Of a DNA stretch of 64,000 nucleotides, positions 16,325 to 63,585 are shown piece by piece. Under the pieces are notes generated by a model. It was not told the origin of the DNA. It worked only from the letters and a program-made list of their open reading frames with translations, and searched no databases. Numbering within the stretch: the stretch's first letter is position 1; every line of letters begins with the position of its first letter. The stretch comes from Candidatus Uhrbacteria bacterium (lineage in GTDB: Bacteria > Patescibacteriota > Patescibacteriia > UBA9934), in the NCBI GenBank assembly GCA_943359345.1, contig CALRHE010000002.1, positions 705 through 64,704 on the forward strand. The letters are read 5' to 3'. A program made the translations under genes and the position numbers.

Positions 16325-16340
16325 AGAGTGATACGGATTA

Positions 16341-16452
16341 GTCATTACAAAATTAGATATTAGCAGCAATTAGAGAATAGAAATTAGACTGAAACGGAGC
16401 GGTTCTAAGTACTCTTTTCTATTCTCTGCTAATTCCTAATTTTGTAATGACT
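16341..16452. repeat. long imperfect palindrome (about 40-bp arms, 33-bp centre) filling the mreB-GT4 intergenic region
   Basis: Left arm GTCATTACAAAATTAGATATTAGCAGCAATTAGAGAATAGAAA versus the reverse complement of the right arm GTCATTACAAAATTAGGAATTAGCAGAGAATAGAAA; the inner 12 bp AGAGAATAGAAA/TTTCTATTCTCT is perfect. Confidence 0.5.
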
Positions 16453-16456
16453 ACTC

Positions 16457-17467
16457 CTAATTACTAAACAAACTCCGCTTGTAGGCTTCAAGATTCTCAA
16501 GCGCGAGCCCAGTACCGCGGGCTACGCATAACTGCGGGTCTTCGGCCATGTAGGTTGGCACGCTGGTAGCTTCGGCTATCAAACGATCAAAATTTCGCAA
16601 CTGACTCGAACCGCCAGAGATCACAATGCCTTTGTCCATGACGTCAGCTGAAAGTTCTGGTGGCGTTTGATTCAAAACATCCTTGAGCGCCGCCAGTATA
16701 CCCTCAAGCAGAGGCTGGATAGCCTCAGTTACGTCATCGCTCGTGACCTCGATGATTTTGGGGAGACCCGTGATCATGTCGCGACCCTTAACGTCCATCC
16801 TGAGCTTGTCAGTGAGGTACATAGCTGAACCGCACTTGATCTTAATGTCTTCAGCTGTACGTTCTCCGATGGCCAAATTATACGTACGGCGTATAAACTC
16901 CATAATCGCATGATCCATTTTGACGCCACCAATCCGAACCGAGGTCGAGGCCACAATGCCACCAAGCGAAATGACCGCCATCTCGCTTGTGCCACCACCA
17001 ATCTCTACGATCATATGACCGTTCGGACTACCAATCGGAATATTGGCACCTATGGCCGCCACGATCGGTTGCTTAATAATATAAGCAGCCTTAGCACCAG
17101 CTGAGAGAGCAGCGTCGATTACAGCCCGTCGTTCAGTTGAGGTAATCCCGCCCGGTACTGCAATCATGACTTCTGGTCGAAAAATACGTACGCCTCCCAA
17201 AGCTTTATTAATAAAATAACGCAGCATCGCCTCTGTGGTTCGGTAGTCAGCAATAACCCCATCCTTCAAAGGTCGGCGCGCCACGATGGTGTCCGGCGTA
17301 CGCCCAAGCATGTCCTTGGCCTCTTTGCCAACAGCTAAAACAGTCTTATCCAATTTAGATATAGCCACCACCGACGGCTCATTAATAATAATGCCCCGCT
17401 TTGGGACATACACCAAGACTGTAGTGGTACCTAGATCGATACCGATTTTTTTGCTGAACATAAGCAA
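16457..17467 (-). CDS. mreB: rod-shape determining actin homolog MreB
   Basis: ...IGIDLGTTTVLVYV...EPSVVAI... and actin-fold blocks throughout. Confidence 0.9.
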   Translation of the reverse strand: MLMFSKKIGIDLGTTTVLVYVPKRGIIINEPSVVAISKLDKTVLAVGKEAKDMLGRTPDTIVARRPLKDGVIADYRTTEAMLRYFINKALGGVRIFRPEVMIAVPGGITSTERRAVIDAALSAGAKAAYIIKQPIVAAIGANIPIGSPNGHMIVEIGGGTSEMAVISLGGIVASTSVRIGGVKMDHAIMEFIRRTYNLAIGERTAEDIKIKCGSAMYLTDKLRMDVKGRDMITGLPKIIEVTSDDVTEAIQPLLEGILAALKDVLNQTPPELSADVMDKGIVISGGSSQLRNFDRLIAEATSVPTYMAEDPQLCVARGTGLALENLEAYKRSLFSN

Positions 17468-24118: not shown

Positions 24119-26302
24119 ATGAGCCAGTATCTTGTTATTAAATCTGCGGACCTGGTTATTGACCCTCCCCAGGGCGAACTTGCTGTCCGCAGCGTCCTCC
24201 ATACTCTTCCGCAGGGCAAGGGCTGGGTTTTTGGGTTATTTACCCTAGAACACAAAGATGATATCGCCCGTGAACGAGTGGCCCATATCCTACTTAGCCA
24301 TCTAGAGCATTTGGCTGCTGACCTGACTGAAGAGACCAACGTGGTACGCCGTTTTGAACAAGCCTTGAGCCGAGTCAACCGCGATCTTGCACGAGCGAAT
24401 AAGGACCTGTCTTTGAACATCGACAAATTCCAGGCTGTGATAGGTGTGCTGTCTGGCGGACAGATATTCATGTCCGGCATTGGCCGCTTAAAAGCCTTAT
24501 TCCTCCACAAAACTGCTGAGCGCCGTTACGTTATTTACGAACTCGATGCTCAGTTTCATGATGGCCAGACTAAAACCTGGGATAAGCCCCTGGTAGCAGT
24601 CTTAGATGGCGAACTGAATCCTGGGGACATTTTCTACCTGGCAACCCCTGTCTCGCACCAAATGTTGGGCATGAACGAACTTCAGGACATTCTTGTCACT
24701 CTCCCTCCGGCTGGCGCCTTACAGCGCATACGCCAGTACTTACCCACGACTGAGCATTATGGCGGCTTGGCTTTCCATGCCCTAGCAGAGGACTTGACGG
24801 GTGTGACTCGCAGAGCCAACCCCATCATTTCGCTTCAAGAACTCGAAAATACCAAACAGCAAACCGCCAACGTGCTTGGTGATCAACAACCTGACCTAGT
24901 CAACACCGTCAAAGAAGTAGCCACGGGCATTAGCAAGAAGCTGTCTAGCCCAGGAATTAGGGGTGCGCAAGCCACCTTGAAGCGTGTCTTGGTGCTCGTC
25001 GTCAAAGGGCTGTCTCGTTTGGCAGCACTGCTAGCAACTCTGAGCGTGAAGTTTGCTGCCTGGCTCAAACGGCGGGTGGCGGATTCGCGCACCAACCGAG
25101 CTATGCGTCACGGTCTGGGCCGTACCAGAAAAATTGGCACACCTGGATTTGTGGATGCCACTCGAGCCTTGTTCTTGGAGCTGTCTACACCGCGCAAATT
25201 TATCTTACTTGGCTTCATGCTCGTCATGGTCATCCTCGGAGGCACAATCTTTATTAATGGTGGCGAGTCTGAAAAAAATAAATCTGAAGCCGCCTTTACT
25301 AACTCAGTCAATTCAATCCAAGATAAAATCCTGGCAGCTGAGGCCAGCTTGATCTATAGGAATAACGCTGAGGCTGTGCGCGCGCTCGAGGGGGCCGCCG
25401 CTACGCTTGAAGCCCTACCCCGTGATACCAATGATCGTCTTAACGAGGCTAATCGCTTAGCTGAAGAACTCACGGTACTACAGGCCAAAATTCGGGGTGT
25501 CACCATGGTTGAACCCGGTCTGTTAGCTGATCTACGTACGCTTGACTCTAGTGCAACACTGGTATCAGCTACCGGCACCATTAATGGGCTCATAGCTCTA
25601 GGTGATAATCTTGGCGTATATAAACTTGATCCGGCCGCCAGAGTTTGGGCTAAGCAAGAAACTATTAACGGGCCAATTTCTCGGATTGAATCGAGCACCA
25701 CTCTAGGGGCCGATGTCATCATTCTCGACGCCACCCAACAACTTGGTCGTATCGATCTCACTGCCCTCACCATGAACCCAATTGCAAGTGGCGCTAACAA
25801 CATGGCCAGCGTTGAGGACATTACTGTCTACAATGATTCGCTCTATGCTCTAACCAGCGTCAGCCAACAGGTAGTCAAGATGCGGCCACAAACGCCAAAC
25901 TTTGAAGCCGGTACAGCCTGGATTAGTGCGCACACAACTGATCTCACCACAGCCCGTGCACTCGCCATCGATTCTGACGTGTACATCCTGCTAGCCAACG
26001 ACATCATTAAATTCACCAGTGGTCGTGAACAAGACTGGCAAACCGCCACCATTGACCCTCCGCTGTCACAACCCGCCGACCTGTGGACAGCCCTTGAATC
26101 CGCCTACCTCTACGTGCTTGACCCAGCTGAAAAGCGTATTCTCGTGATTATCAAAGACACCGGCGCCATCCAAGCCCAGTATGTGTCAGATGACTTTGCC
26201 AGTGCTGTCGGGTTCGTCGTTGAAGAAGCTACCAGCAAAATCACCGTGATTACATCAACTCAGGCCCTTGAATTTACTCCTCAACACCTAATTGTCAATT
26301 AA
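24119..26302 (+). CDS. large membrane protein (cytoplasmic N-domain, one TM, extracytoplasmic C-domain), function unknown
   Basis: 727 aa; TM helix FILLGFMLVMVILGGTIFI near residue 355; the stop codon TAA lies inside the TTAA flank of the repeat element at 26299. Confidence 0.5.
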   Translation: MSQYLVIKSADLVIDPPQGELAVRSVLHTLPQGKGWVFGLFTLEHKDDIARERVAHILLSHLEHLAADLTEETNVVRRFEQALSRVNRDLARANKDLSLNIDKFQAVIGVLSGGQIFMSGIGRLKALFLHKTAERRYVIYELDAQFHDGQTKTWDKPLVAVLDGELNPGDIFYLATPVSHQMLGMNELQDILVTLPPAGALQRIRQYLPTTEHYGGLAFHALAEDLTGVTRRANPIISLQELENTKQQTANVLGDQQPDLVNTVKEVATGISKKLSSPGIRGAQATLKRVLVLVVKGLSRLAALLATLSVKFAAWLKRRVADSRTNRAMRHGLGRTRKIGTPGFVDATRALFLELSTPRKFILLGFMLVMVILGGTIFINGGESEKNKSEAAFTNSVNSIQDKILAAEASLIYRNNAEAVRALEGAAATLEALPRDTNDRLNEANRLAEELTVLQAKIRGVTMVEPGLLADLRTLDSSATLVSATGTINGLIALGDNLGVYKLDPAARVWAKQETINGPISRIESSTTLGADVIILDATQQLGRIDLTALTMNPIASGANNMASVEDITVYNDSLYALTSVSQQVVKMRPQTPNFEAGTAWISAHTTDLTTARALAIDSDVYILLANDIIKFTSGREQDWQTATIDPPLSQPADLWTALESAYLYVLDPAEKRILVIIKDTGAIQAQYVSDDFASAVGFVVEEATSKITVITSTQALEFTPQHLIVN

Positions 26303-26424
26303 CACAGATGATGAATCGATCAGTACAGATCTCACACAGATTGTGAAACTGAAAAGCGAGCTGGTTGGGCTCGCTTTTCACAGCTGTGTTAAATCTGTAA
26401 TTTGCGACTCTCTATCTGTGTTAA
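26299..26424. mobile_element. miniature inverted-repeat element, copy A (118-bp core flanked by TTAA)
   Basis: Terminal inverted repeats CACAGATGATG... and ...CTCTATCTGTG (consensus TTAACACAGATAG) plus sub-terminal ACAGATYTnACRCAG repeats; same length and end sequences as copy B at 50767. Confidence 0.5.
26351..26379. terminator. bidirectional terminator hairpin inside element A
   Basis: gAAAAGCGAGCtggttggGCTCGCTTTTc, a perfect 10-bp stem flanked by A and T runs, between a convergent gene pair. Confidence 0.6.
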
Positions 26425-26425
26425 T

Positions 26426-26827
26426 TTACTTGAGAGTCACTTTAGCACCAGCGGCTTCGAGCTTGGCCTTCATGTCGTCGGCTTCGGCCTGAGTGGCGTT
26501 TTCTTTAACGGCCTTAGGCGCGGCATCAACGATGTCCTTGGCTTCCTTCAGACCCAAACCAGTCAATTCACGCACAGCCTTGATCACGTTGATCTTGCTG
26601 TCACCGGCTGAAGTGAGCTCAACGGTAAATGAACTCTTCTCTTCAGCAGCGGCAGCGCCAGCAGCGGCTGGAGCAGCCATCATCATGGCTGGAGCAGCAG
26701 CTGAAACACCGAACTTGTCTTCCAGAACCTTTACCAATTCGGCTAGATCAAGTACCGACATCTTCTCAACGCTCTCAACGAGAGACTTAAACTTCTCTGG
26801 AACCTCTACGGATTTCATGTCAGACAT
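26426..26827 (-). CDS. rplL: 50S ribosomal protein L7/L12
   Basis: ...[23 protein letters not shown]...Ala-rich hinge...[18 protein letters not shown]... Confidence 0.9.
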
Positions 26828-27390: not shown

Positions 27391-27692
27391 AAGTCTTACA
27401 AAACACATCCAAGTTCGTCATCTACGTTGTCGCCGACTTCCATCGGACTCACCGTATATCTCTATACGCCTCGTCCTTACTCAATCGTCTTCTAGTAGCT
27501 GACAAACTTAATGTGTTTTGTCTGTACATGTGAATAAAAAATAGCGCCATGATTGGCGCAAAACATATGAAAATAGCTCACTTTGATACTATTTTCATCG
27601 ATCTTCTCGACGGGACTTATGAGGATTATTCCCCGACCCGAGTTCTGCGAATTTCGATGGTACGGGTAGGATATATAAAAACCCCAAAAGCG

Positions 27693-42470: not shown

Positions 42471-42484
42471 ACGCCAGGCGCCAC

Positions 42485-42576
42485 AGACCCTGAAAGACAG
42501 TGAAGGGTCTAGCAGACTGGAAATGAAGTGTCTCCAATAACAAATTCATGAGACCCTTCGCCTACGCTCAGGGTCT
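42485..42576 (+). repeat. pair of identical-stem palindromes, AGACCCT-N12-AGGGTCT twice
   Basis: First hairpin at 42485..42510 and second at 42551..42576; the second ends 10 nt before the dinB start codon. Confidence 0.5.
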
Positions 42577-42585
42577 GGTTGTGCT

Positions 42586-43857
42586 ATGGCAATAATCCTC
42601 CATCTGGACTTTAATTCATATTTTGCGTCTGTCGAACAACAAGCAAACCCGTTTTTGCGTGGACTTCCGATTGCAGTTGCCGGTAAGGGACGACACTCAA
42701 TCGATGTCGCTGCCGCTCATCAAGGTTCAGCTCGAATTACAATCGACCAACTCTCGTTTCAAAGATCAGTCGTCACCACCGCCTCGCGCGAAGCCAAACG
42801 ACGGGGTGTAAAAACAGCCATGGGAACCTGGCAAGCCCGTAAGATTTGTCCCGAAATGCTGGTCATTCCTGGTGATCCTCAAAAATACGGTGACATCACC
42901 AAACGCTTCATGGCCATTCTCCGGCGCTATGCAGATGTGGTCCAACAATTCAGTACTGACGAAGCCTTTGCTGATATTACTTGTGCTTGCGGTGGCGACT
43001 ATTTGGGGGCCACTATTCTGGCTCAGAGCATTAGAGCTGAGATTGCTTTGGAGTGCGGCGAATACTGTACGGTCTCAATTGGGATCGCAAGTAATAAATT
43101 TTTAGCTAAACTGGCGTCTGAATCTAAAAAACCCAACGGCCTAACCGTCGTACCGCCCCATGAAGCCGAAGACTTTGTGCTCACGCGGCCACTGGCAGAT
43201 TTTTGTGGTATTGGCCACCGTATTGAAAAGCATCTCGAAAGACTAGGGGCTACCTCGGTGGCTACCCTGCGGCAACTACCCCTATCCTTGTTGCTACGCG
43301 AATTTAAAAGCTACGGTTATTTTATTTATAACTCTGCTCGCGGCTTGGGTTCAGATGAACTAGAGCCAAACGAAGATCCAAAATCTATTGGCAACTCCTA
43401 CACCTTTCCCCACAACCTCAAGAACGAACAGGAAATCTATCGTAACTTATTAGCCCTAGCGGATCGGGTGGCTTGGCGTATGCGTAAACAAAATTTTGTG
43501 GCCACGCACATTGCTGGCTACGTACGCTACGGAGATTTTGGAGGCTACGGTTTTCACAGACGCTGCCAAGATCCACTCATAGATGGCTTAGACATAGCCA
43601 ACACGGCCTGGGAAATCATGAAAACACGTATTGACGCGCAAAAAGGCGTGCGGCTGATTGGCGTTTCTGCTAGTGGCTTATTGCCGCTTGGTGGAAGTGA
43701 CTCTCTGTTTGATTCTCAACGACGCAAAACCCGAGCTCTGAAGGCACTGGACCAAGTCACAGATAAATACGGTAGTGGTGTTTGGCAACGAGCCTCAACC
43801 CTGCAAACCAATTTCAAAGAACGGGTGAGCGGTTGGCATTATGACCATGAGAGTTAA
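42586..43857 (+). CDS. dinB: Y-family DNA polymerase (DinB/Pol IV-like)
   Basis: ...ILHLDFNSYFASVEQ... (catalytic Asp), ...FSTDEAFADIT... (DE); an insertion of about 25 aa after IAVAG. Confidence 0.8.
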   Translation: MAIILHLDFNSYFASVEQQANPFLRGLPIAVAGKGRHSIDVAAAHQGSARITIDQLSFQRSVVTTASREAKRRGVKTAMGTWQARKICPEMLVIPGDPQKYGDITKRFMAILRRYADVVQQFSTDEAFADITCACGGDYLGATILAQSIRAEIALECGEYCTVSIGIASNKFLAKLASESKKPNGLTVVPPHEAEDFVLTRPLADFCGIGHRIEKHLERLGATSVATLRQLPLSLLLREFKSYGYFIYNSARGLGSDELEPNEDPKSIGNSYTFPHNLKNEQEIYRNLLALADRVAWRMRKQNFVATHIAGYVRYGDFGGYGFHRRCQDPLIDGLDIANTAWEIMKTRIDAQKGVRLIGVSASGLLPLGGSDSLFDSQRRKTRALKALDQVTDKYGSGVWQRASTLQTNFKERVSGWHYDHES

Positions 43858-49278: not shown

Positions 49279-50673
49279 ATGAACAGCAATCGCCTGCTGC
49301 CGCTCATCGGCATGCTTGCCACCCTCAACCTGTCCGCCTGCGCCATCGAGCGTGGAGCGGAAAAGCCCGCCAACACGCCCTCGCCGGCTCCGGCCTTCGA
49401 GGACACCGTTCCGAGCTTCGGCGAGGCGCCCCCGGCGCCTCCAGCCGACGACACCGAACCCGTCGATCTGGACGGTGACGACGACGGCTTCAACGCCGAC
49501 GTCGACTGCGACGACGCCGACCCGGGCATCAACCCCGGTGCATCCGACGACACCTGCAACGGCGTCGATGAGAACTGCGATGGCGCCGATCTGAACGTCA
49601 GCTTGCGCATGCTCGGCAACGAGTGTGGCAGCGTCGACGCGGACAGCGACAACTACATGGATTTCGGCTTCGACGAAGACGGAGTCCCGTACGTGGTCGA
49701 CTGCGACGACGCCAACCCGCTCGTCAACCCCGGCATGACCGAGGTGACGTACGACGGGCTCGACCAGGACTGCGATGCCACCACCCTGGACGACGATCTC
49801 GACCAGGACAGCTTCCTCCTGATCGATGATTGCAACGACGCCGACCCGGACATCAACCCGGACGCAGTCGAGATCTGCGGCAACGACGTCGATGAGGATT
49901 GCGATGATTCGGCGCCAGCGCTCGGTGCGATCTTCCCGGATGCCGACGGTGACGGGTACGGAGACATGAACTCCGGCGACATCGACACTTTCGTGTGCGA
50001 GGACGCTGTCCCCGAGGGCTTCGTCTTCGGTGATCGCCTGGACTGCGATGACCTCGATCCCGCCATCCACCCGGACGCGCCCGTCATCTACTATGACGCT
50101 GTCGACGACAACTGCGACGGCATCGTGGAAGACGACCAGGACTGCGACGGCTACCTGCTCGCGGTCGACTGCGATGACCTCGATCCCGCCATCCACGAAG
50201 ACTGCGAGGTCGTCGTGGAAGACCCGCCGGAAGAGCCGGTGGTCGAAGATCCGGTTGTGGCCTTCTGCGACGTGGGCTTCAGCATCGTGAGCGGCGTGTT
50301 CATCGCTCCGGCAGGGTCGACCTTCGTGTCGATCTACGGACGCCGCACCGGCTCCGACATGTCATTCAGCGATGACGTGTCGTGGACGGACGAGATCAGC
50401 GATCCCACCGACATGACCGTCGTCTACCTGGGCAACACCGTCGCGTTCCTGCTCGACACCTGCGTCGAAGATGCGGATGCCGAGTGGGTCGTCAACGGCG
50501 TCTACACGGATGCCGACGGCGACAGCCACTGGATCTGCGAAGGCGGGGCTCTCACCACCGTCTTCCAGGAAGCCTGGTACGACCTCGGCGCGGACGACGC
50601 CTTCGACCTGCCCGTCACCGCCGACGTGTGGGACCCCGCCGGCTTCGGCTGCGACGCCACCTGGTCCATGTGA
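49279..50673 (+). CDS. lipoprotein with tandem MopE-like Cys/Asp-rich putative metal-binding repeats; compositionally foreign (GC-rich)
   Basis: GGGAG RBS then ATG. Lipobox LNLSAC. At least five CDDxDPxINP...C-containing repeats. Codons are almost all G/C-ending (gac, tgc, ggc, gtc), which opens ORFs in all six frames. The stop is TGA. Confidence 0.6.
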   Translation: MNSNRLLPLIGMLATLNLSACAIERGAEKPANTPSPAPAFEDTVPSFGEAPPAPPADDTEPVDLDGDDDGFNADVDCDDADPGINPGASDDTCNGVDENCDGADLNVSLRMLGNECGSVDADSDNYMDFGFDEDGVPYVVDCDDANPLVNPGMTEVTYDGLDQDCDATTLDDDLDQDSFLLIDDCNDADPDINPDAVEICGNDVDEDCDDSAPALGAIFPDADGDGYGDMNSGDIDTFVCEDAVPEGFVFGDRLDCDDLDPAIHPDAPVIYYDAVDDNCDGIVEDDQDCDGYLLAVDCDDLDPAIHEDCEVVVEDPPEEPVVEDPVVAFCDVGFSIVSGVFIAPAGSTFVSIYGRRTGSDMSFSDDVSWTDEISDPTDMTVVYLGNTVAFLLDTCVEDADAEWVVNGVYTDADGDSHWICEGGALTTVFQEAWYDLGADDAFDLPVTADVWDPAGFGCDATWSM

Positions 50674-50766
50674 CCACTCAGGCCGCCTACTTGTTCGTGT
50701 GCACTCTGTGCGCACGGGCAGGTATGGCGGCCTTTTGAATTACCGCACTTTGTCTTCACCGTTTAT

Positions 50767-50892
50767 TTACACAGATAGTTAAAGCCTTAACAGATTTTAC
50801 ACAAGTACAAAATACGAGTCCTGATAGAGACCCGTATTTCGTTGTCCGTATCTGCGTAAAATCTGTAATCGCCTAATCACTATCTGTGTTAA
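50767..50892. mobile_element. miniature inverted-repeat element, copy B (118-bp core, TTTA/TTAA flanks)
   Basis: TIRs TTTACACAGATAG... and ...CTATCTGTGTTAA; an internal inverted ACAGATTTTAC repeat; the right TTAA contains the tsf stop codon. Confidence 0.5.
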
Positions 50893-51482
50893 TTCCCCAA
50901 AGTCAAACGCACAAAACGACCGATGCGAATATTTTCTCCAATAGCAGCAACTTTCTGTTCGAGTAAGTTAGCAATCGTGATGGCGTCATCTTTTACAAAC
51001 TTCTGATCCATGAGCACGATGTCTTCATAAAACTTGTTGAGCTTGCCGTCCAGGATTTTTTCAATGACTTCGGCTGGTTTACCCTCAGCTTTTAGCTGCT
51101 CGACATGAAAAGCTTTCTCTTTCTGAACTACTTCATCGGGAACATCAGCTCGAGAGGTGTATTGCGGGGCGGCGGCTGCGATGTGCAACGCTAGGTCCTG
51201 GCAGAAGTTTATGAAGTCTTGGTTACGAGCTACAAAGTCGGTCTCACACATAATCTCCACCATCACGGCCACCTTGCCGTTTGAATGAGTATAAGTGTGA
51301 ACCCGTCCTTCAGCGGTAGCGCGGTCAGCCTTTTTAGCCATTTTGAGAGCGCCACTCTTACGCAACCATTCAAGCGCTGCCTCCATGTTTCCGTTAGTTT
51401 CAGTGAGAGCCTTCTTGGCATCCATCATGCCGGCACCCGTCATTTCACGTAGCTTGGCAACGTCGCCTGCGGTTATTGTCAT
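50889..51482 (-). CDS. tsf: elongation factor Ts (short form)
   Basis: ...ITAGDVAKLREMTGAGMMDAKKALTETNGNMEAALEWLRKSG... UBA-like N-domain and a core domain. Confidence 0.85.
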   Translation of the reverse strand: MTITAGDVAKLREMTGAGMMDAKKALTETNGNMEAALEWLRKSGALKMAKKADRATAEGRVHTYTHSNGKVAVMVEIMCETDFVARNQDFINFCQDLALHIAAAAPQYTSRADVPDEVVQKEKAFHVEQLKAEGKPAEVIEKILDGKLNKFYEDIVLMDQKFVKDDAITIANLLEQKVAAIGENIRIGRFVRLTLGN

Positions 51483-51483
51483 A

Positions 51484-52326
51484 TTATTTCTTGTCAGCGA
51501 GCTTATCGGCCGTCTTCAGACTCGCCATTTCTTCTTTGATTTTATTATCCAGCTCATCAACAACCTCCTTAGCTTCAGCTGAAACACGAACTTCTTCTTC
51601 AAGCTGCTTGCGTACTTGAGCGGCGGCTTGAGCCTCAGAGGCTGCCTTAGTCTTGCCGTCCTGGACGGCGCCAGCCACAAGCTTGGTGATAAGGTCGAGA
51701 GAGTTTACAGCGTCATCGTTGCCAGGAATAACGTACTCGATACCGGTTGGGTTAACGTTACTATCAACCAAAGCAACCATAGGTACCCGCATAGTCTGAG
51801 CCTCACGTACAGCCGTCTTTTCATGACGCGCGTCCAAGATGAACAAGGCATCTGGCACACGAGTCAAAGTCGACAAACCACCAATCTTTTCATCCAGTTC
51901 AGCGATCTCACGATCAAACTGGAGCTGTTCGAGTTTAGTGTACTTCTTAAGTTCGCCTTTTTCACGCTTATCCTTCAAGTCGAGATAGTGACGGATTAAA
52001 CGCTGCAGCTGAACGTAGTTGGTAAGTGTACCACCAAGCCAACGAACGTTCACAAACGGCATACCGCATTCGGTAGCGTACTTAGCTACGATGGTCTGAG
52101 CCTGACGCTTGGTACCCACGAACAAAATGCTACCGCCACGGGACACCGTGTTGGTCACATAGTTCAAAGCTTTTTCGAGCTGCTCAGCTGTCTTTTCGAC
52201 GTTAATGATGTGCACGCCGCCGCGTTCACCAAAGATGAACGGTTTCATTTTGGGGTGCCACTTAGCGGACTGATGTCCAAAGTGCACACCGGCCTTGAGC
52301 ATCTCAAGGGATGAGGGGATCTTCAT
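51484..52326 (-). CDS. rpsB: 30S ribosomal protein S2 with a K/E-rich C-terminal extension
   Basis: ...MLKAGVHFGHQSAKWHPKMKPFIFGERGGVHIINVEKT...; start at the Met at 52326 by alignment with S2 N-termini. Confidence 0.85.
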   Translation of the reverse strand: MKIPSSLEMLKAGVHFGHQSAKWHPKMKPFIFGERGGVHIINVEKTAEQLEKALNYVTNTVSRGGSILFVGTKRQAQTIVAKYATECGMPFVNVRWLGGTLTNYVQLQRLIRHYLDLKDKREKGELKKYTKLEQLQFDREIAELDEKIGGLSTLTRVPDALFILDARHEKTAVREAQTMRVPMVALVDSNVNPTGIEYVIPGNDDAVNSLDLITKLVAGAVQDGKTKAASEAQAAAQVRKQLEEEVRVSAEAKEVVDELDNKIKEEMASLKTADKLADKK

Positions 52327-52363
52327 AACTTTCCTTTTAACCTCGATCAAGCCTCGCCTTGGG

Positions 52364-57950: not shown

Positions 57951-57989
57951 GCAACCAAGGGGTTGAGGGGGTTAGTATGAAAAATACCT

Positions 57990-58021
57990 GGGGTTAAGGG
58001 GTTTAAAAACCCCTTAACCCC
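57990..58021. repeat. perfect palindrome/hairpin GGGGTTAAGGGGTTT-aa-AACCCCTTAACCCC
   Basis: 15-bp perfect arms; located between the Zn-ribbon ORF stop and the rplY start, followed by a T-rich run on the plus strand. Confidence 0.6.
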
Positions 58022-58022
58022 T

Positions 58023-58304
58023 TTATTTACGCAGTTCAACATGGGCCTTCAAAACCTCGTCCAGGCTAATTTTCTGACCTTTTTCAAAACGCATAGCTTC
58101 GTCTACGGCGCAATCAGTCAACACGCCTACACAGGCTACATGACCAGCCCGACGCTCAACCGCAAACATCATGGCTCGAAAACATTGGCTACAAGTAGCG
58201 TGGCTGATTTGATTACCGTGTTTTTTTCCAACCGCACGAACGTCCGGCCCTGAATAAAGAGAGGTGCAAAAAGGACAACGAGCTATAGGTTCGGGCAAAC
58301 GCAT
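58023..58304 (-). CDS. small Zn-ribbon (CPxC...CxxC) protein, function unknown
   Basis: RCPFCTS...ATCSQCF four-Cys pattern; 93 aa immediately downstream of rodA. Confidence 0.4.
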   Translation of the reverse strand: MRLPEPIARCPFCTSLYSGPDVRAVGKKHGNQISHATCSQCFRAMMFAVERRAGHVACVGVLTDCAVDEAMRFEKGQKISLDEVLKAHVELRK

Positions 58305-62826: not shown

Positions 62827-63372
62827 ATGGCAAAGCAAACCGCCAATTATGGTCGTCGATGGTACGCCATCCACACCTACTCAGGCTACGAAGAAAACGT
62901 CTACGACAGTTTGATGCAACGCATTGACACCATGGACATGGAAGAGAAGATCTTCACCGTCATGGTTCCCAAAGAGAAGAAGATCAAAATCAAAAATGGT
63001 CAGCGCAAGGTAGTTGAAGAAAAAATCTTCCCCGGCTACGTACTGGTGGACATGATCGTGACTGACGATTCTTGGTACGTGGTGCGTAACACCCCAAACG
63101 TCACCGGCTTCATTGGAACCGGTAACGCCCCAACCCCAATTCCACAAGAAGAGATCGATGCCCTGATTAAGCGCGTTGGTGTCAACGAACCTGAATTCAA
63201 AATCGACGTATCCAAGAACGACACAATCTCTATCACCGACGGTCCTTTCAAGGGCCAGCAAGGTAAGGTGGACGATGTGGATGTGGCCCGCGGTAAAATC
63301 AAGGTCATGGTGTCTATGTTCGGACGTGAAACCCCGCTCGAGCTCGACTTTCTCCAGATCAAGAAGGTTTAA
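62827..63372 (+). CDS. nusG: transcription termination/antitermination factor NusG
   Basis: ...RWYAIHTYSGYE... NGN domain and a C-terminal KOW (...GPFKGQQGKVDDVDVARGKIKVMVSMFGRETPLEL...). Confidence 0.9.
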   Translation: MAKQTANYGRRWYAIHTYSGYEENVYDSLMQRIDTMDMEEKIFTVMVPKEKKIKIKNGQRKVVEEKIFPGYVLVDMIVTDDSWYVVRNTPNVTGFIGTGNAPTPIPQEEIDALIKRVGVNEPEFKIDVSKNDTISITDGPFKGQQGKVDDVDVARGKIKVMVSMFGRETPLELDFLQIKKV

Positions 63373-63380
63373 TGACCACC

Positions 63381-63407
63381 AAATACAGCTTGAAAAGGCT
63401 GTATTTT
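63381..63407 (+). terminator. rho-independent terminator/attenuator after nusG
   Basis: AAATACAGCttgaaaagGCTGTATTTT. Confidence 0.7.
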
Positions 63408-63491
63408 GGTCTTTACCCTAAATAATTGACATTTAGCCCTAAAACTGGCACTCTTTCGCTACTAAATAACGACGTGGTTGCTTGAAGACCG

Positions 63492-63555
63492 CCCTTCGAC
63501 TCCCCCTCCGACTCAGCCCATAAAAAGGTTAAGCTTCGCTCGGGGTCGCTCAGGG
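63492..63555 (+). repeat. conserved intergenic motif, copy 2, in the rplK leader
   Basis: CCCTTCGACTCCC...(37-nt internal expansion)...GGGGTCGCTCAGGG; the same end blocks as 52364..52397. Confidence 0.45.
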
Positions 63556-63585
63556 CCTTTGGGAATCCACTATAAAAAAGCTCGT

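What the first reader, a model, noticed from the sequence alone, without database searches (positions are those of the whole stretch)
50767..50892. Copy B of the TTAA-flanked element overlaps the tsf stop codon and lies just downstream of a horizontally acquired GC-rich gene
The right flank TTAA (50889..50892) contains the TAA stop of tsf. The element therefore inserted into the TTAA that overlapped the native stop codon without disrupting the gene. The left side borders a compositionally foreign gene (49279..50673). That adjacency would be expected if the element, or whatever mobilises it, marks an integration hotspot. The internal structure is nested inverted repeats (ACAGATTTTAC / GTAAAATCTGT and AAATACG / CGTATTT). 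The transcript would therefore fold into a long hairpin.
Basis: seen in the sequence. Interest (0 to 1): 0.6.

Follow-up and report, generated by a model that had tools for sequence, protein, structure and literature searches.

The report
Modular palindromic repeat around tsf terminator
The 126-base palindrome after the tsf gene is real, but it is not a TTAA-bounded jumping element: it is the gene's terminator hairpin flanked on each strand by three copies of an ACAGAT motif, one member of a small repeat family found after translation genes in this group of candidate-phyla (Patescibacteria) bacteria.

Summary
The sequence is as described, except that copy B's left end is TTTA, not TTAA. It is far from chance: the core motif has 4 matches against 0.7 expected, and RNA fold z-scores are -7 to -10.

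Each half is a ~45-nt arm of three modules (AATTAACACAGATAGTGA-N7-ATTACAGAT-TTT-ACACAGAT). Each arm sits just 5' of an A-tract/GC-stem/T-tract hairpin, so where genes converge, two arms share one bidirectional terminator.

TTWAC is part of the module itself, so it is not a target-site duplication. Half elements exist with one arm plus the hairpin.

The family sits after rplL, tsf and rplA in this species. It also occurs in a few other Patescibacteria contigs. At tsf it is confined to a clade of at least 91% nucleotide identity, and strains there carry 3+3, 1+3 or 3+1 modules. The next species (82%) and more distant relatives have a plain terminator.

The GC-rich MopE-like neighbour is compositionally odd (GC3 86% against about 51%). 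It is nevertheless positionally conserved in relatives that lack the element, so it does not mark an integration hotspot.

My best reading is a REP/BIME-like dispersed terminator cassette whose conserved hexamers are binding sites for an unknown factor. The mechanism is not shown.

The parts
50850..50892 (-). tsf-side arm of copy B. Module 1 is TTAACACAGAT (50892->50882) and supplies the tsf stop. Module 2 is ATTACAGAT (50869->50861). Module 3 is TTTACGCAGAT (50860->50850).
   Evidence: nhmmer arm profile E = 1.7e-14
50807..50842 (.). Central hairpin of copy B (AAAATACGAGTC-loop-GACCCGTATTT). It has an A-tract on one side and a T-tract on the other, so it looks like a bidirectional intrinsic terminator of tsf.
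   Evidence: 15-bp central stem in the MFE and centroid folds. A similar hairpin without arms is present in L015. The simple terminator scan did not call it.
50766..50806 (+). Second arm of copy B, on the + strand. Module 1 is TTTACACAGAT (50766-50776). Module 2 is TTAACAGAT (50787-50795). Module 3 is degenerate, TTTTACACAAGT (50796-50806).
   Evidence: nhmmer E = 5e-10
50889..51482 (-). tsf (EF-Ts, 197 aa), last gene of the rpsB-tsf operon.
   Evidence: PF00889; rpsB at 51484..52350
50678..50742 (+). The MopE-like gene's own GC-rich terminator hairpin plus TTTTGAATT, lying between that gene and the element.
   Evidence: -46.8 kcal/mol, z = -6.2
49279..50673 (+). GC-rich, repeat-containing MopE-like secreted protein gene (neighbour, not part of the element).
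   Evidence: PF11617; GC3 86%; positional homologues in relatives
26299..26341 (+). Copy A, arm on the side of the 727-aa gene. Modules are TTAACACAGAT (26299-26309), GTACAGAT (26323-26330) and CTCACACAGAT (26331-26341). Module 1 supplies the last codon and the stop of the 727-aa ORF.
26351..26379 (.). Central hairpin of copy A (GAAAAGCGAGC-loop-GCTCGCTTTTC), terminator-like in both directions.
   Evidence: Its stem is similar to the plain terminators AAAAACGAGC..GCTCGTTTTT of L046/L047 at the same place.
26382..26424 (-). Copy A, rplL-side arm. Module 1 is TTAACACAGAT (26424->26414). Module 2 is ATTACAGAT (26401->26393). Module 3 is TTTAACACAGCT (26393->26382). The rplL stop (26426-26428) is 1 nt from the arm.
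   Evidence: Identical in 7 strain contigs.

Best explanation
Copy B is the bidirectional terminator hairpin of tsf. On each strand, immediately 5' of the hairpin, it carries a ~45-nt arm of three ACAGAT-core modules.

The arm-plus-hairpin unit belongs to a dispersed, lineage-restricted repeat family of Patescibacteria. The palindrome arises because two units share one hairpin where genes converge.

The family behaves like REP/BIME-type terminator-associated repeats. It has been copied to several gene ends. It sits directly after stop codons. It gains and loses modules by deletion between the direct repeats.

The hexamer cores keep their sequence and their roughly 21/11-nt spacing while the spacers drift. 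I infer that they are binding sites for a sequence-specific protein, either the factor that spreads them or a host factor.

I also infer an immediate effect. The paired modules lengthen the terminator stem from about 13-15 bp to a ~55-bp imperfect hairpin. This would reinforce termination in both directions and protect the 3' end at highly expressed translation operons.

Shown: the anatomy, the family, its distribution, the module conservation and the module-number polymorphism. Inferred: the binding factor, the effect on termination and stability, and the way copies spread.
For: - Arm consensus. Fourteen arms give 30 of 49 columns at 70% conservation or more, with the modules near-invariant.
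- Arm independence. Arms of one palindrome are no more alike than arms from different loci (0.69 against 0.69 identity). Overall arm complementarity is not what is kept.
- Half units. One arm plus a hairpin follows yidC in L005 and rplA in L021, in the sense orientation of the upstream gene.
- Coupling to the hairpin. Module 3 usually lies 2-3 nt from the A-tract.
- Hairpin type. Seven of 8 array-bearing hairpins have a CGAG-type stem. Array-less terminators of the window and of relatives do not, except the two at the same locus in L046/L047.
- Loci. The three loci in this species are the 3' ends of rplJL, rpsB-tsf and rplKA.
- Cross-species retention. The rplA arm keeps three perfect modules in L021, whose rplA is only 74% identical at nucleotide level.
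- Module-number polymorphism. Strains at 91-95% identity carry 3+3, 1+3 or 3+1 modules at tsf, with breakpoints in the repeated CAGAT. At rplA the states are 3+3, decayed 3+1 and 3+0.
- Folding. The full element folds with z = -7 to -10, with the modules paired and the spacers as internal loops.
Against: - No transposase, RAYT-like gene or binding protein has been identified, and no gain event has been caught in the act.
- Copy number is low: 2 in 64 kb, and none in about 200 kb from other species.
- Direction is unresolved. The array-less hairpins of L015 and L046/L047 could be elements that lost both arms, rather than ancestral terminators that later gained them.
- Some modules decay in close strains. 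In L035/37/38 they read CACACAT and GCAGAT, so any constraint is not absolute.
- The + strand arm of copy B lies downstream of the MopE gene's own terminator. A role in that gene's 3' UTR RNA is therefore unlikely.
- The simple terminator scan did not call either central hairpin, though that scan is barely above its shuffle background.
- There are no expression data.
Confidence: 0.45

Rival explanations
1. It is a selected cis-regulatory array rather than a mobile repeat. The ACAGAT modules would be an operator-like platform, on DNA or on the 3' UTR RNA, for an unknown factor that co-regulates or insulates the 3' ends of translation-machinery operons. Copies would persist because they function in place.
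For: - All three loci in this species are ends of ribosomal-protein or EF-Ts operons. Arm-free terminators follow most other genes.
- The modules are perfect at the rplA locus in a species with only 74% rplA nucleotide identity.
- The CAGAT-to-CAGAT spacing of about 21 and 11 nt (two turns and one turn of the helix) is kept in most arms.
- The hexamers are conserved while the spacers drift.
Against: - In other contigs the arms follow yidC, ftsH, a cupredoxin-like gene and a small ORF.
- rpmE and rplY in the window have plain terminators.
- Arms are absent at tsf and rplL in neighbouring species.
- Whole arms or pairs of modules are deleted in close strains without an obvious replacement.
- The same module order and spacer consensus at unrelated loci still requires a copying mechanism.
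Confidence: 0.22
2. One reading: a classical MITE of about 126 bp with terminal inverted repeats inserted as one unit into a TTAA target, here the TTAA overlapping the tsf stop, and duplicated that target.
For: - The arms are inverted. Copy A has TTAA at both ends.
- Presence or absence differs between species.
- A second, unrelated palindrome (16327-16465) is also an insertion relative to relatives, so palindromic insertions do occur in this lineage.
Against: - B's left end is TTTA. The rplA copy ends GGAC / GTGAA. TTWAC also precedes the internal module 3.
- L010 has the native stop separate from the element.
- Sites without arms hold a similar hairpin, not a bare TTAA.
- One-armed units exist.
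- Copies share only the modules and a weak spacer consensus, not uniform identity.
- There is no match in phage or plasmid collections or in 185,579 species genomes beyond one Patescibacteria MAG and one MAG labelled Gammaproteobacteria.
Confidence: 0.1
3. The units are 3'-UTR-derived sibling small RNAs. The three single-stranded ACAGAU motifs upstream of a terminator hairpin would act as redundant seeds, or as a protein sponge.
For: In half units, and in the sense arm up to the terminator, the three modules are predicted to be unpaired just 5' of a strong terminator hairpin (folds of L005, L021, and window 50800-50900 minus strand). The architecture resembles multi-seed sRNAs.
Against: No promoter or processing evidence. 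No Rfam family matches. The + strand arm of B lies behind another terminator. The complementary motif ATCTGT is not enriched elsewhere in the window.
Confidence: 0.06
4. The elements are DNA-uptake-signal pairs doubling as terminators, as in Neisseria, given that Patescibacteria are naturally competent.
For: Inverted motif pairs sit around terminators.
Against: ACAGAT is not over-represented: 14 and 20 occurrences against 17 and 14 expected in 64 kb. Outside the two elements it is scattered. No literature links such signals to this group.
Confidence: 0.02

Closest known systems
REP/BIME elements of enterobacteria (RAYT-associated repetitive extragenic palindromes)
   Same: Extragenic, at 3' ends of operons and between convergent genes. 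Inverted units form mosaic palindromes. Unit number is variable. The elements can form hairpins in RNA. From general knowledge, they are thought to bind host proteins and to stabilise upstream mRNA.
   Different: There is no 20-40-nt palindromic REP unit and no GTAG head. Here each unit is three non-palindromic ACAGAT modules plus a terminator hairpin. Copy number is low. No RAYT gene is known.
Correia elements (NEMIS/CREE) of Neisseria, and MITEs in general
   Same: Palindromic repeats of about 100-150 bp near gene ends that can act as terminators and fold into long hairpins. Presence or absence differs between strains.
   Different: Correia elements and MITEs have defined terminal inverted repeats and a target-site duplication. 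Here the supposed TTAA duplication is part of the module, one-armed units exist, and the arms flank a hairpin that also occurs without arms in relatives.
BOX elements of Streptococcus pneumoniae
   Same: Modular intergenic repeats with a variable number of an internal module, predicted to form stable hairpins.
   Different: BOX modules are 45-59 nt and unrelated in sequence. They are not built around an intrinsic terminator.
Inverted DUS/USS pairs acting as terminators (Neisseria, Pasteurellaceae)
   Same: A short conserved motif in inverted orientation around gene-end hairpins.
   Different: Uptake signals are hugely over-represented genome-wide, including inside genes. ACAGAT is not.
Iteron or centromere-type arrays (for example parC of plasmid R1, two blocks of about 11-bp repeats)
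   Same: Short motifs at about one-turn spacing in two blocks. L024 shows 5+5 CACAGAT repeats with a 10-11 nt period.
   Different: Those arrays flank a promoter on a plasmid next to their binding-protein gene. These sit at chromosomal gene 3' ends in inverted blocks with no adjacent partner gene.

Membership tests
MITE | Terminal inverted repeats | tested here: met
   The arms are 71-79% complementary.
MITE | Target-site duplication (TTAA) flanking every copy | tested here: not met
   B's left end is TTTA. The L036 ends are GGAC and GTGAA. TTWAC also precedes the internal module 3. L010 has the native stop separate from the element.
MITE | Filled and empty sites differ by one precise insertion | tested here: not met
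   Relatives without arms carry a similar hairpin between the stop codons. In the window the extra sequence lies on both sides of it.
MITE | Related autonomous element or transposase in the genome | not testable with these tools
   Only 64 kb of the genome is available. The source species is not among the genome contigs representatives.
REP/BIME | Short imperfect-palindrome unit with a conserved GTAG head | tested here: not met
   The modules are TTWACACAGAT and ATTACAGAT and are not individually palindromic.
REP/BIME | Extragenic location at operon 3' ends, with inverted units and variable unit number | tested here: met
REP/BIME | High copy number, and a RAYT gene | tested here: inconclusive
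   There are two copies in 64 kb and three loci known in the species. RAYT presence cannot be tested.
Intrinsic (Rho-independent) terminator, bidirectional | GC-rich stem-loop with a 3' U-tract (and a 5' A-tract for the opposite strand), downstream of stop codons | tested here: met
   The central stems and tracts are read from the sequence and the folds. The consensus scan did not flag them, but it is close to its shuffle background.
Intrinsic (Rho-independent) terminator, bidirectional | Transcripts end there | not testable with these tools
   No expression data.
DNA uptake sequence | Strong genome-wide over-representation of the motif | tested here: not met
TIGR / CRISPR-like guide arrays | Regular 36-nt (or CRISPR-length) units with a neighbouring Tas or Cas gene | tested here: not met
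   The arms have three modules at 21/11-nt spacing in inverted blocks. No Nop, Tas or Cas domain was found among the neighbours scanned. The family definition is from PMC12045711.
Any Rfam RNA family | Covariance-model match | tested here: not met
   Nothing at gathering score. At E up to 5 there was nothing for copy B and only noise for copy A.

The most novel reading that the evidence does not exclude
The ACAGAT arms are not selfish repeats. They would be a lineage-specific 3'-end code: a phased array bound by an as-yet unknown Patescibacteria protein that homes to, or is recruited at, CGAG-type terminator hairpins. It would control termination, mRNA stability or supercoiling at the ends of the most highly expressed translation operons.

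Alternatively, a new hairpin-directed copying mechanism adds an arm 5' of a terminator on either strand without any target duplication.
Probability: 0.15. Interest if true: 0.7.

Novelty: new variant of a known kind. Interest (0 to 1): 0.42.

Why it matters
Candidate-phyla (Patescibacteria) genomes are small and are usually described as poor in repeats and mobile DNA. I found no paper describing REP-, MITE- or uptake-signal-like repeats in them.

This is a modular repeat tied to terminator hairpins. Its hexamer cores stay intact across species even though its module number changes between strains.

It therefore points to an unidentified sequence-specific factor in organisms that are hard to study. 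It also gives a ready marker for strain typing. For annotation, it shows that two stop codons here (tsf and the 727-aa gene) are supplied by the repeat itself.

Tried and rejected
- **Genome contigs and metagenome-contig scans.** I used TTAACACAGAT-N12-16-TACAGAT-NNN-AC. They gave 7 and 11 loci. About half are chance or coding-region matches (L003, L004, L008, L009, L016, L020), as is the single viral-contig hit L027. True relatives are L005/L018, L007, L021, L022 and L023. Looser CACAGAT arrays occur in L006, L017, L019 and L024-L026. The source species is not in the genome collection.
- **Phage and plasmid BLAST with the element.** No match.
- **Rfam.** No family.
- **TIGR/box C/D idea.** Copy A contains GATGATGA and CTGA, but the other arms lack these, and there is no Tas gene. 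Rejected.
- **PhoB/PhoP-type or DnaA-box readings of TTAACA/CTGT repeats.** Considered from memory. Rejected because the arrays lie between convergent genes, and the match to the DnaA box is poor.
- **Motif in the operon leaders.** A single sense-orientation CACAGAT lies in the rpsB leader. A degenerate TACAGACAAAACACAT lies upstream of rplJ. Both are consistent with chance.
- **Simple terminator scan.** Uninformative: 25 found against 20 expected in 20 kb.
- **nhmmer arm profile over all 527 kb held.** No further copies.
- **Arm similarity.** I tested whether the arms of one palindrome are more alike than arms from different loci. They are not.

Full report
**Observation.**
- The window holds tsf at 50889..51482 on the minus strand. 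Its TAA stop lies inside TTAA 50889-50892.
ACAGATTTTAC occurs only at 50790 on the plus strand and 50856 on the minus strand, against 0.03 expected.
- A second copy lies at 26299-26424, between a 727-aa ORF and rplL, which converge.
- The core ACACAGATAGT with at most 1 mismatch has 4 matches against 0.73 expected, all in the two copies.
- Both strands of both copies fold into one long hairpin, z = -7.1 to -10.2.
- Two details of the finding are wrong. The left end of copy B is TTTA, not TTAA. The GC-rich gene is also separated from the element by 93 nt that hold its own strong terminator hairpin.

**Anatomy.** Aligning both copies in both orientations, and later 14 arms from several loci, shows that each half is an arm of three modules. 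The consensus is aATTAACACAGATAGTGA - about 7 variable nt - ATTACAGAT - TTT - ACACAGAT. It is usually followed after 2-3 nt by an A-tract, a GC stem (mostly CGAGC), a loop, the complementary stem and a T-tract.
- CAGAT-to-CAGAT spacing is about 21 and 11 nt.
- Thirty of 49 arm columns are at least 70% conserved, while the spacers drift.
- The two arms of one palindrome are no more alike than arms from different loci.
- What is kept is therefore the hexamer modules and their coupling to the hairpin, not overall arm complementarity.
- In the predicted folds the modules pair and the spacers form internal loops.

**The unit is one arm plus a hairpin.** In L005 (a Patescibacteria MAG) a single arm and hairpin follow yidC, with the next gene in the same direction. 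In L021 a single arm and hairpin follow rplA. In both, the arm is in the sense orientation of the upstream gene. Where genes converge, an arm on each strand shares one hairpin, and that gives the palindrome.

**TTAA is not a target duplication.**
- TTWAC is the 5' part of modules 1 and 3 and recurs inside the arms.
- The rplA-locus copy ends GGACACAGAT ... ATCTGTGTGAA.
- In strain L010 the tsf stop is separate (AAC TAA A TTAACACAGAT). In the window a few bases are missing, so the module's own TAA serves as the stop.
- Likewise the 727-aa ORF ends ..QHLIK* in relatives and ..QHLIVN* in the window, with AAT TAA coming from module 1.

**Organism and distribution.**
- Tsf and RplL homologues are named Patescibacteria where any name exists.
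- The pattern scan of 185,579 species genomes found a true relative in one Patescibacteria MAG (L005) and in one MAG labelled Gammaproteobacteria (L007).
- The metagenome scan added L021, L022 and L023. It also found looser CACAGAT arrays in lower-GC contigs (L024, with three arrays of up to 5+5 in 14 kb, and L025).
- In the window's species the family sits at three loci: the 3' ends of rplJL, rpsB-tsf and rplKA. The last lies just beyond the window's right end.
- An nhmmer profile of the arms found no other copy in the window, or in about 200 kb from other species.
- ACAGAT itself is not enriched in the window.

**Comparative test at tsf.** A tree of rpsB-tsf DNA places the window, L010 and L012 in one clade at 91-95% identity. 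L014/L015 sit at 82%, L028 at 79%, L029 at 74% and L030 at 70%.
- Window and L001/L002: 3+3 modules.
- L010: 1+3 modules. L012: 3+1 modules. The deletion ends lie in the repeated CAGAT.
- L014/L015: no modules, only AAAAGACGGGGTGCGAGCCCTGTTTTTT, which resembles B's centre.
- More distant relatives: unrelated plain terminators.

**Comparative test at rplL.**
- Seven strain contigs carry an identical copy A.
- Species at 84-85% rplL nucleotide identity have a 43-56-nt spacer with a plain bidirectional terminator.
- In L046/L047 that terminator has the same ACGAGC stem as A's centre.

**Comparative test at rplA.**
- The states are 3+3 (L036), a decayed 3+1 (L035/37/38) and 3+0 (L021).
- L021's rplA is only 74% identical at nucleotide level, yet its three modules are perfect.

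**What this means for origin.**
- It is also not a one-step insertion into a TTAA. In the nearest array-less relatives a similar hairpin is already there, and the arms lie on both sides of it.
- I cannot tell whether arms were added to an existing hairpin or whether those relatives lost both arms. Deletion of modules is directly observed among strains, and no gain is.
- The same module order and weak spacer consensus at unrelated loci require copying between loci.
- The survival of perfect hexamers across species, and the association with CGAG-type hairpins, point to sequence-specific recognition. That association is 7 of 8 array-bearing hairpins against essentially none of the array-less ones outside the orthologous sites.

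**The GC-rich neighbour.**
- The ORF 49279..50673 is a MopE-repeat protein. Its GC is 64.9% and its GC3 86%, against about 51% for native genes.
- Its outside homologues are in Myxococcota, Bacteroidota and others at 30-50% identity. The compositional claim holds.
- A homologous convergent gene nevertheless sits downstream of tsf in L015 (40% aa identity although Tsf is 92%), in L028 (37%, including the C-terminal domain) and in L029 (GC3 83-93% in L028 and L029). L032 also carries GC-rich MopE-like genes there (63-66% GC). L030 has none.
- It is an old, fast-evolving, compositionally odd resident of the tsf-gap interval. It predates the arms, and copy A and the rplA copy have no such neighbour. 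The adjacency says nothing about an integration hotspot defined by the element.

**Mechanism.**
- Shown: a modular arm-plus-hairpin repeat at gene 3' ends, copied between loci, with conserved hexamers and a variable module number.
- Inferred: the central hairpins are the working bidirectional terminators of the flanking genes.
- Inferred: the arms extend the stem to about 55 bp, which reinforces termination and protects the 3' end.
- Inferred: the hexamers are sites for an unknown protein.
- The + strand arm of B lies behind the MopE gene's own terminator. This argues against a purely 3'-UTR RNA role for that arm and slightly favours DNA-level recognition or simple symmetry.
- Rivals and their weights are given separately.

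**Comparison with known systems.** The family works most like REP/BIME or Correia-type terminator-associated repeats, but it fails the defining features of each. It has no GTAG palindromic unit and no target duplication. It matches no Rfam family, no phage or plasmid sequence and no paper I could find. I file it as a new variant of a known kind.

Noticed in passing
window 16327-16465: A second, unrelated 139-nt palindrome (62-nt arms, 79% complementary, RNA fold z = -8.9). It is rich in ATTAG/CTAAT repeats and starts at the mreB stop codon (..AATTAG). Relatives L046 and L052 have only 6-7 nt between mreB and the next gene, so it is an insertion. It is single-copy in all the sequence held.
   Followed up: partly
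window 49279-50673; L015 3704-5095; L028 9215-11059; L029 10744-12729: The MopE-like gene downstream of tsf keeps GC3 at 83-93% across species. It evolves very fast (40% aa identity where Tsf is 92%). It also carries internal 121-nt and 30-nt repeats (repeat finder families D1 and D2). This is a compositional island that is positionally conserved, which simple recent horizontal transfer does not explain.
   Followed up: partly
L024 393-430, 1331-1456, 4746-4863; L025 2223-2320: Lower-GC contigs (42-43%) carry palindromes made of 4-5 tandem CACAGAT units at a 10-11 nt period on each side. There are three in 14 kb of L024, downstream of paralogous secreted-protein genes. The core motif is the same but the architecture differs. 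The taxon was not determined.
   Followed up: partly
L035 10901-11761, L037 2956-3816, L038 1465-2325 against window 63372-63559 and L036: A 286-aa ORF with no Pfam hit lies between nusG and rplK in some strains that have an identical NusG. It is absent in the window and in L036, so it is a strain-level insertion or deletion inside the secE-nusG-rplKA cluster.
   Followed up: no
window 42484-42577: Two hairpins with the same stem (AGACCCT / AGGGTCT) lie 40 nt apart in a divergent intergenic region upstream of the gene at 42586. No Rfam match.
   Followed up: no
window 57957-58023: G-rich and C-rich inverted repeats (AAGGGGTTGAGGGGGTT ... AAACCCCTTAACCCCTT, including a perfect 15-nt palindrome arm pair). 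They lie between the L25 gene region and the next minus-strand gene.
   Followed up: no
window 27511-27526 (minus strand): TACAGACAAAACACAT, just after a terminator-like hairpin upstream of rplJ, resembles decayed modules 2 and 3. It may be chance: that pattern gave 8 matches at up to 2 mismatches against 3.3 expected.
   Followed up: partly
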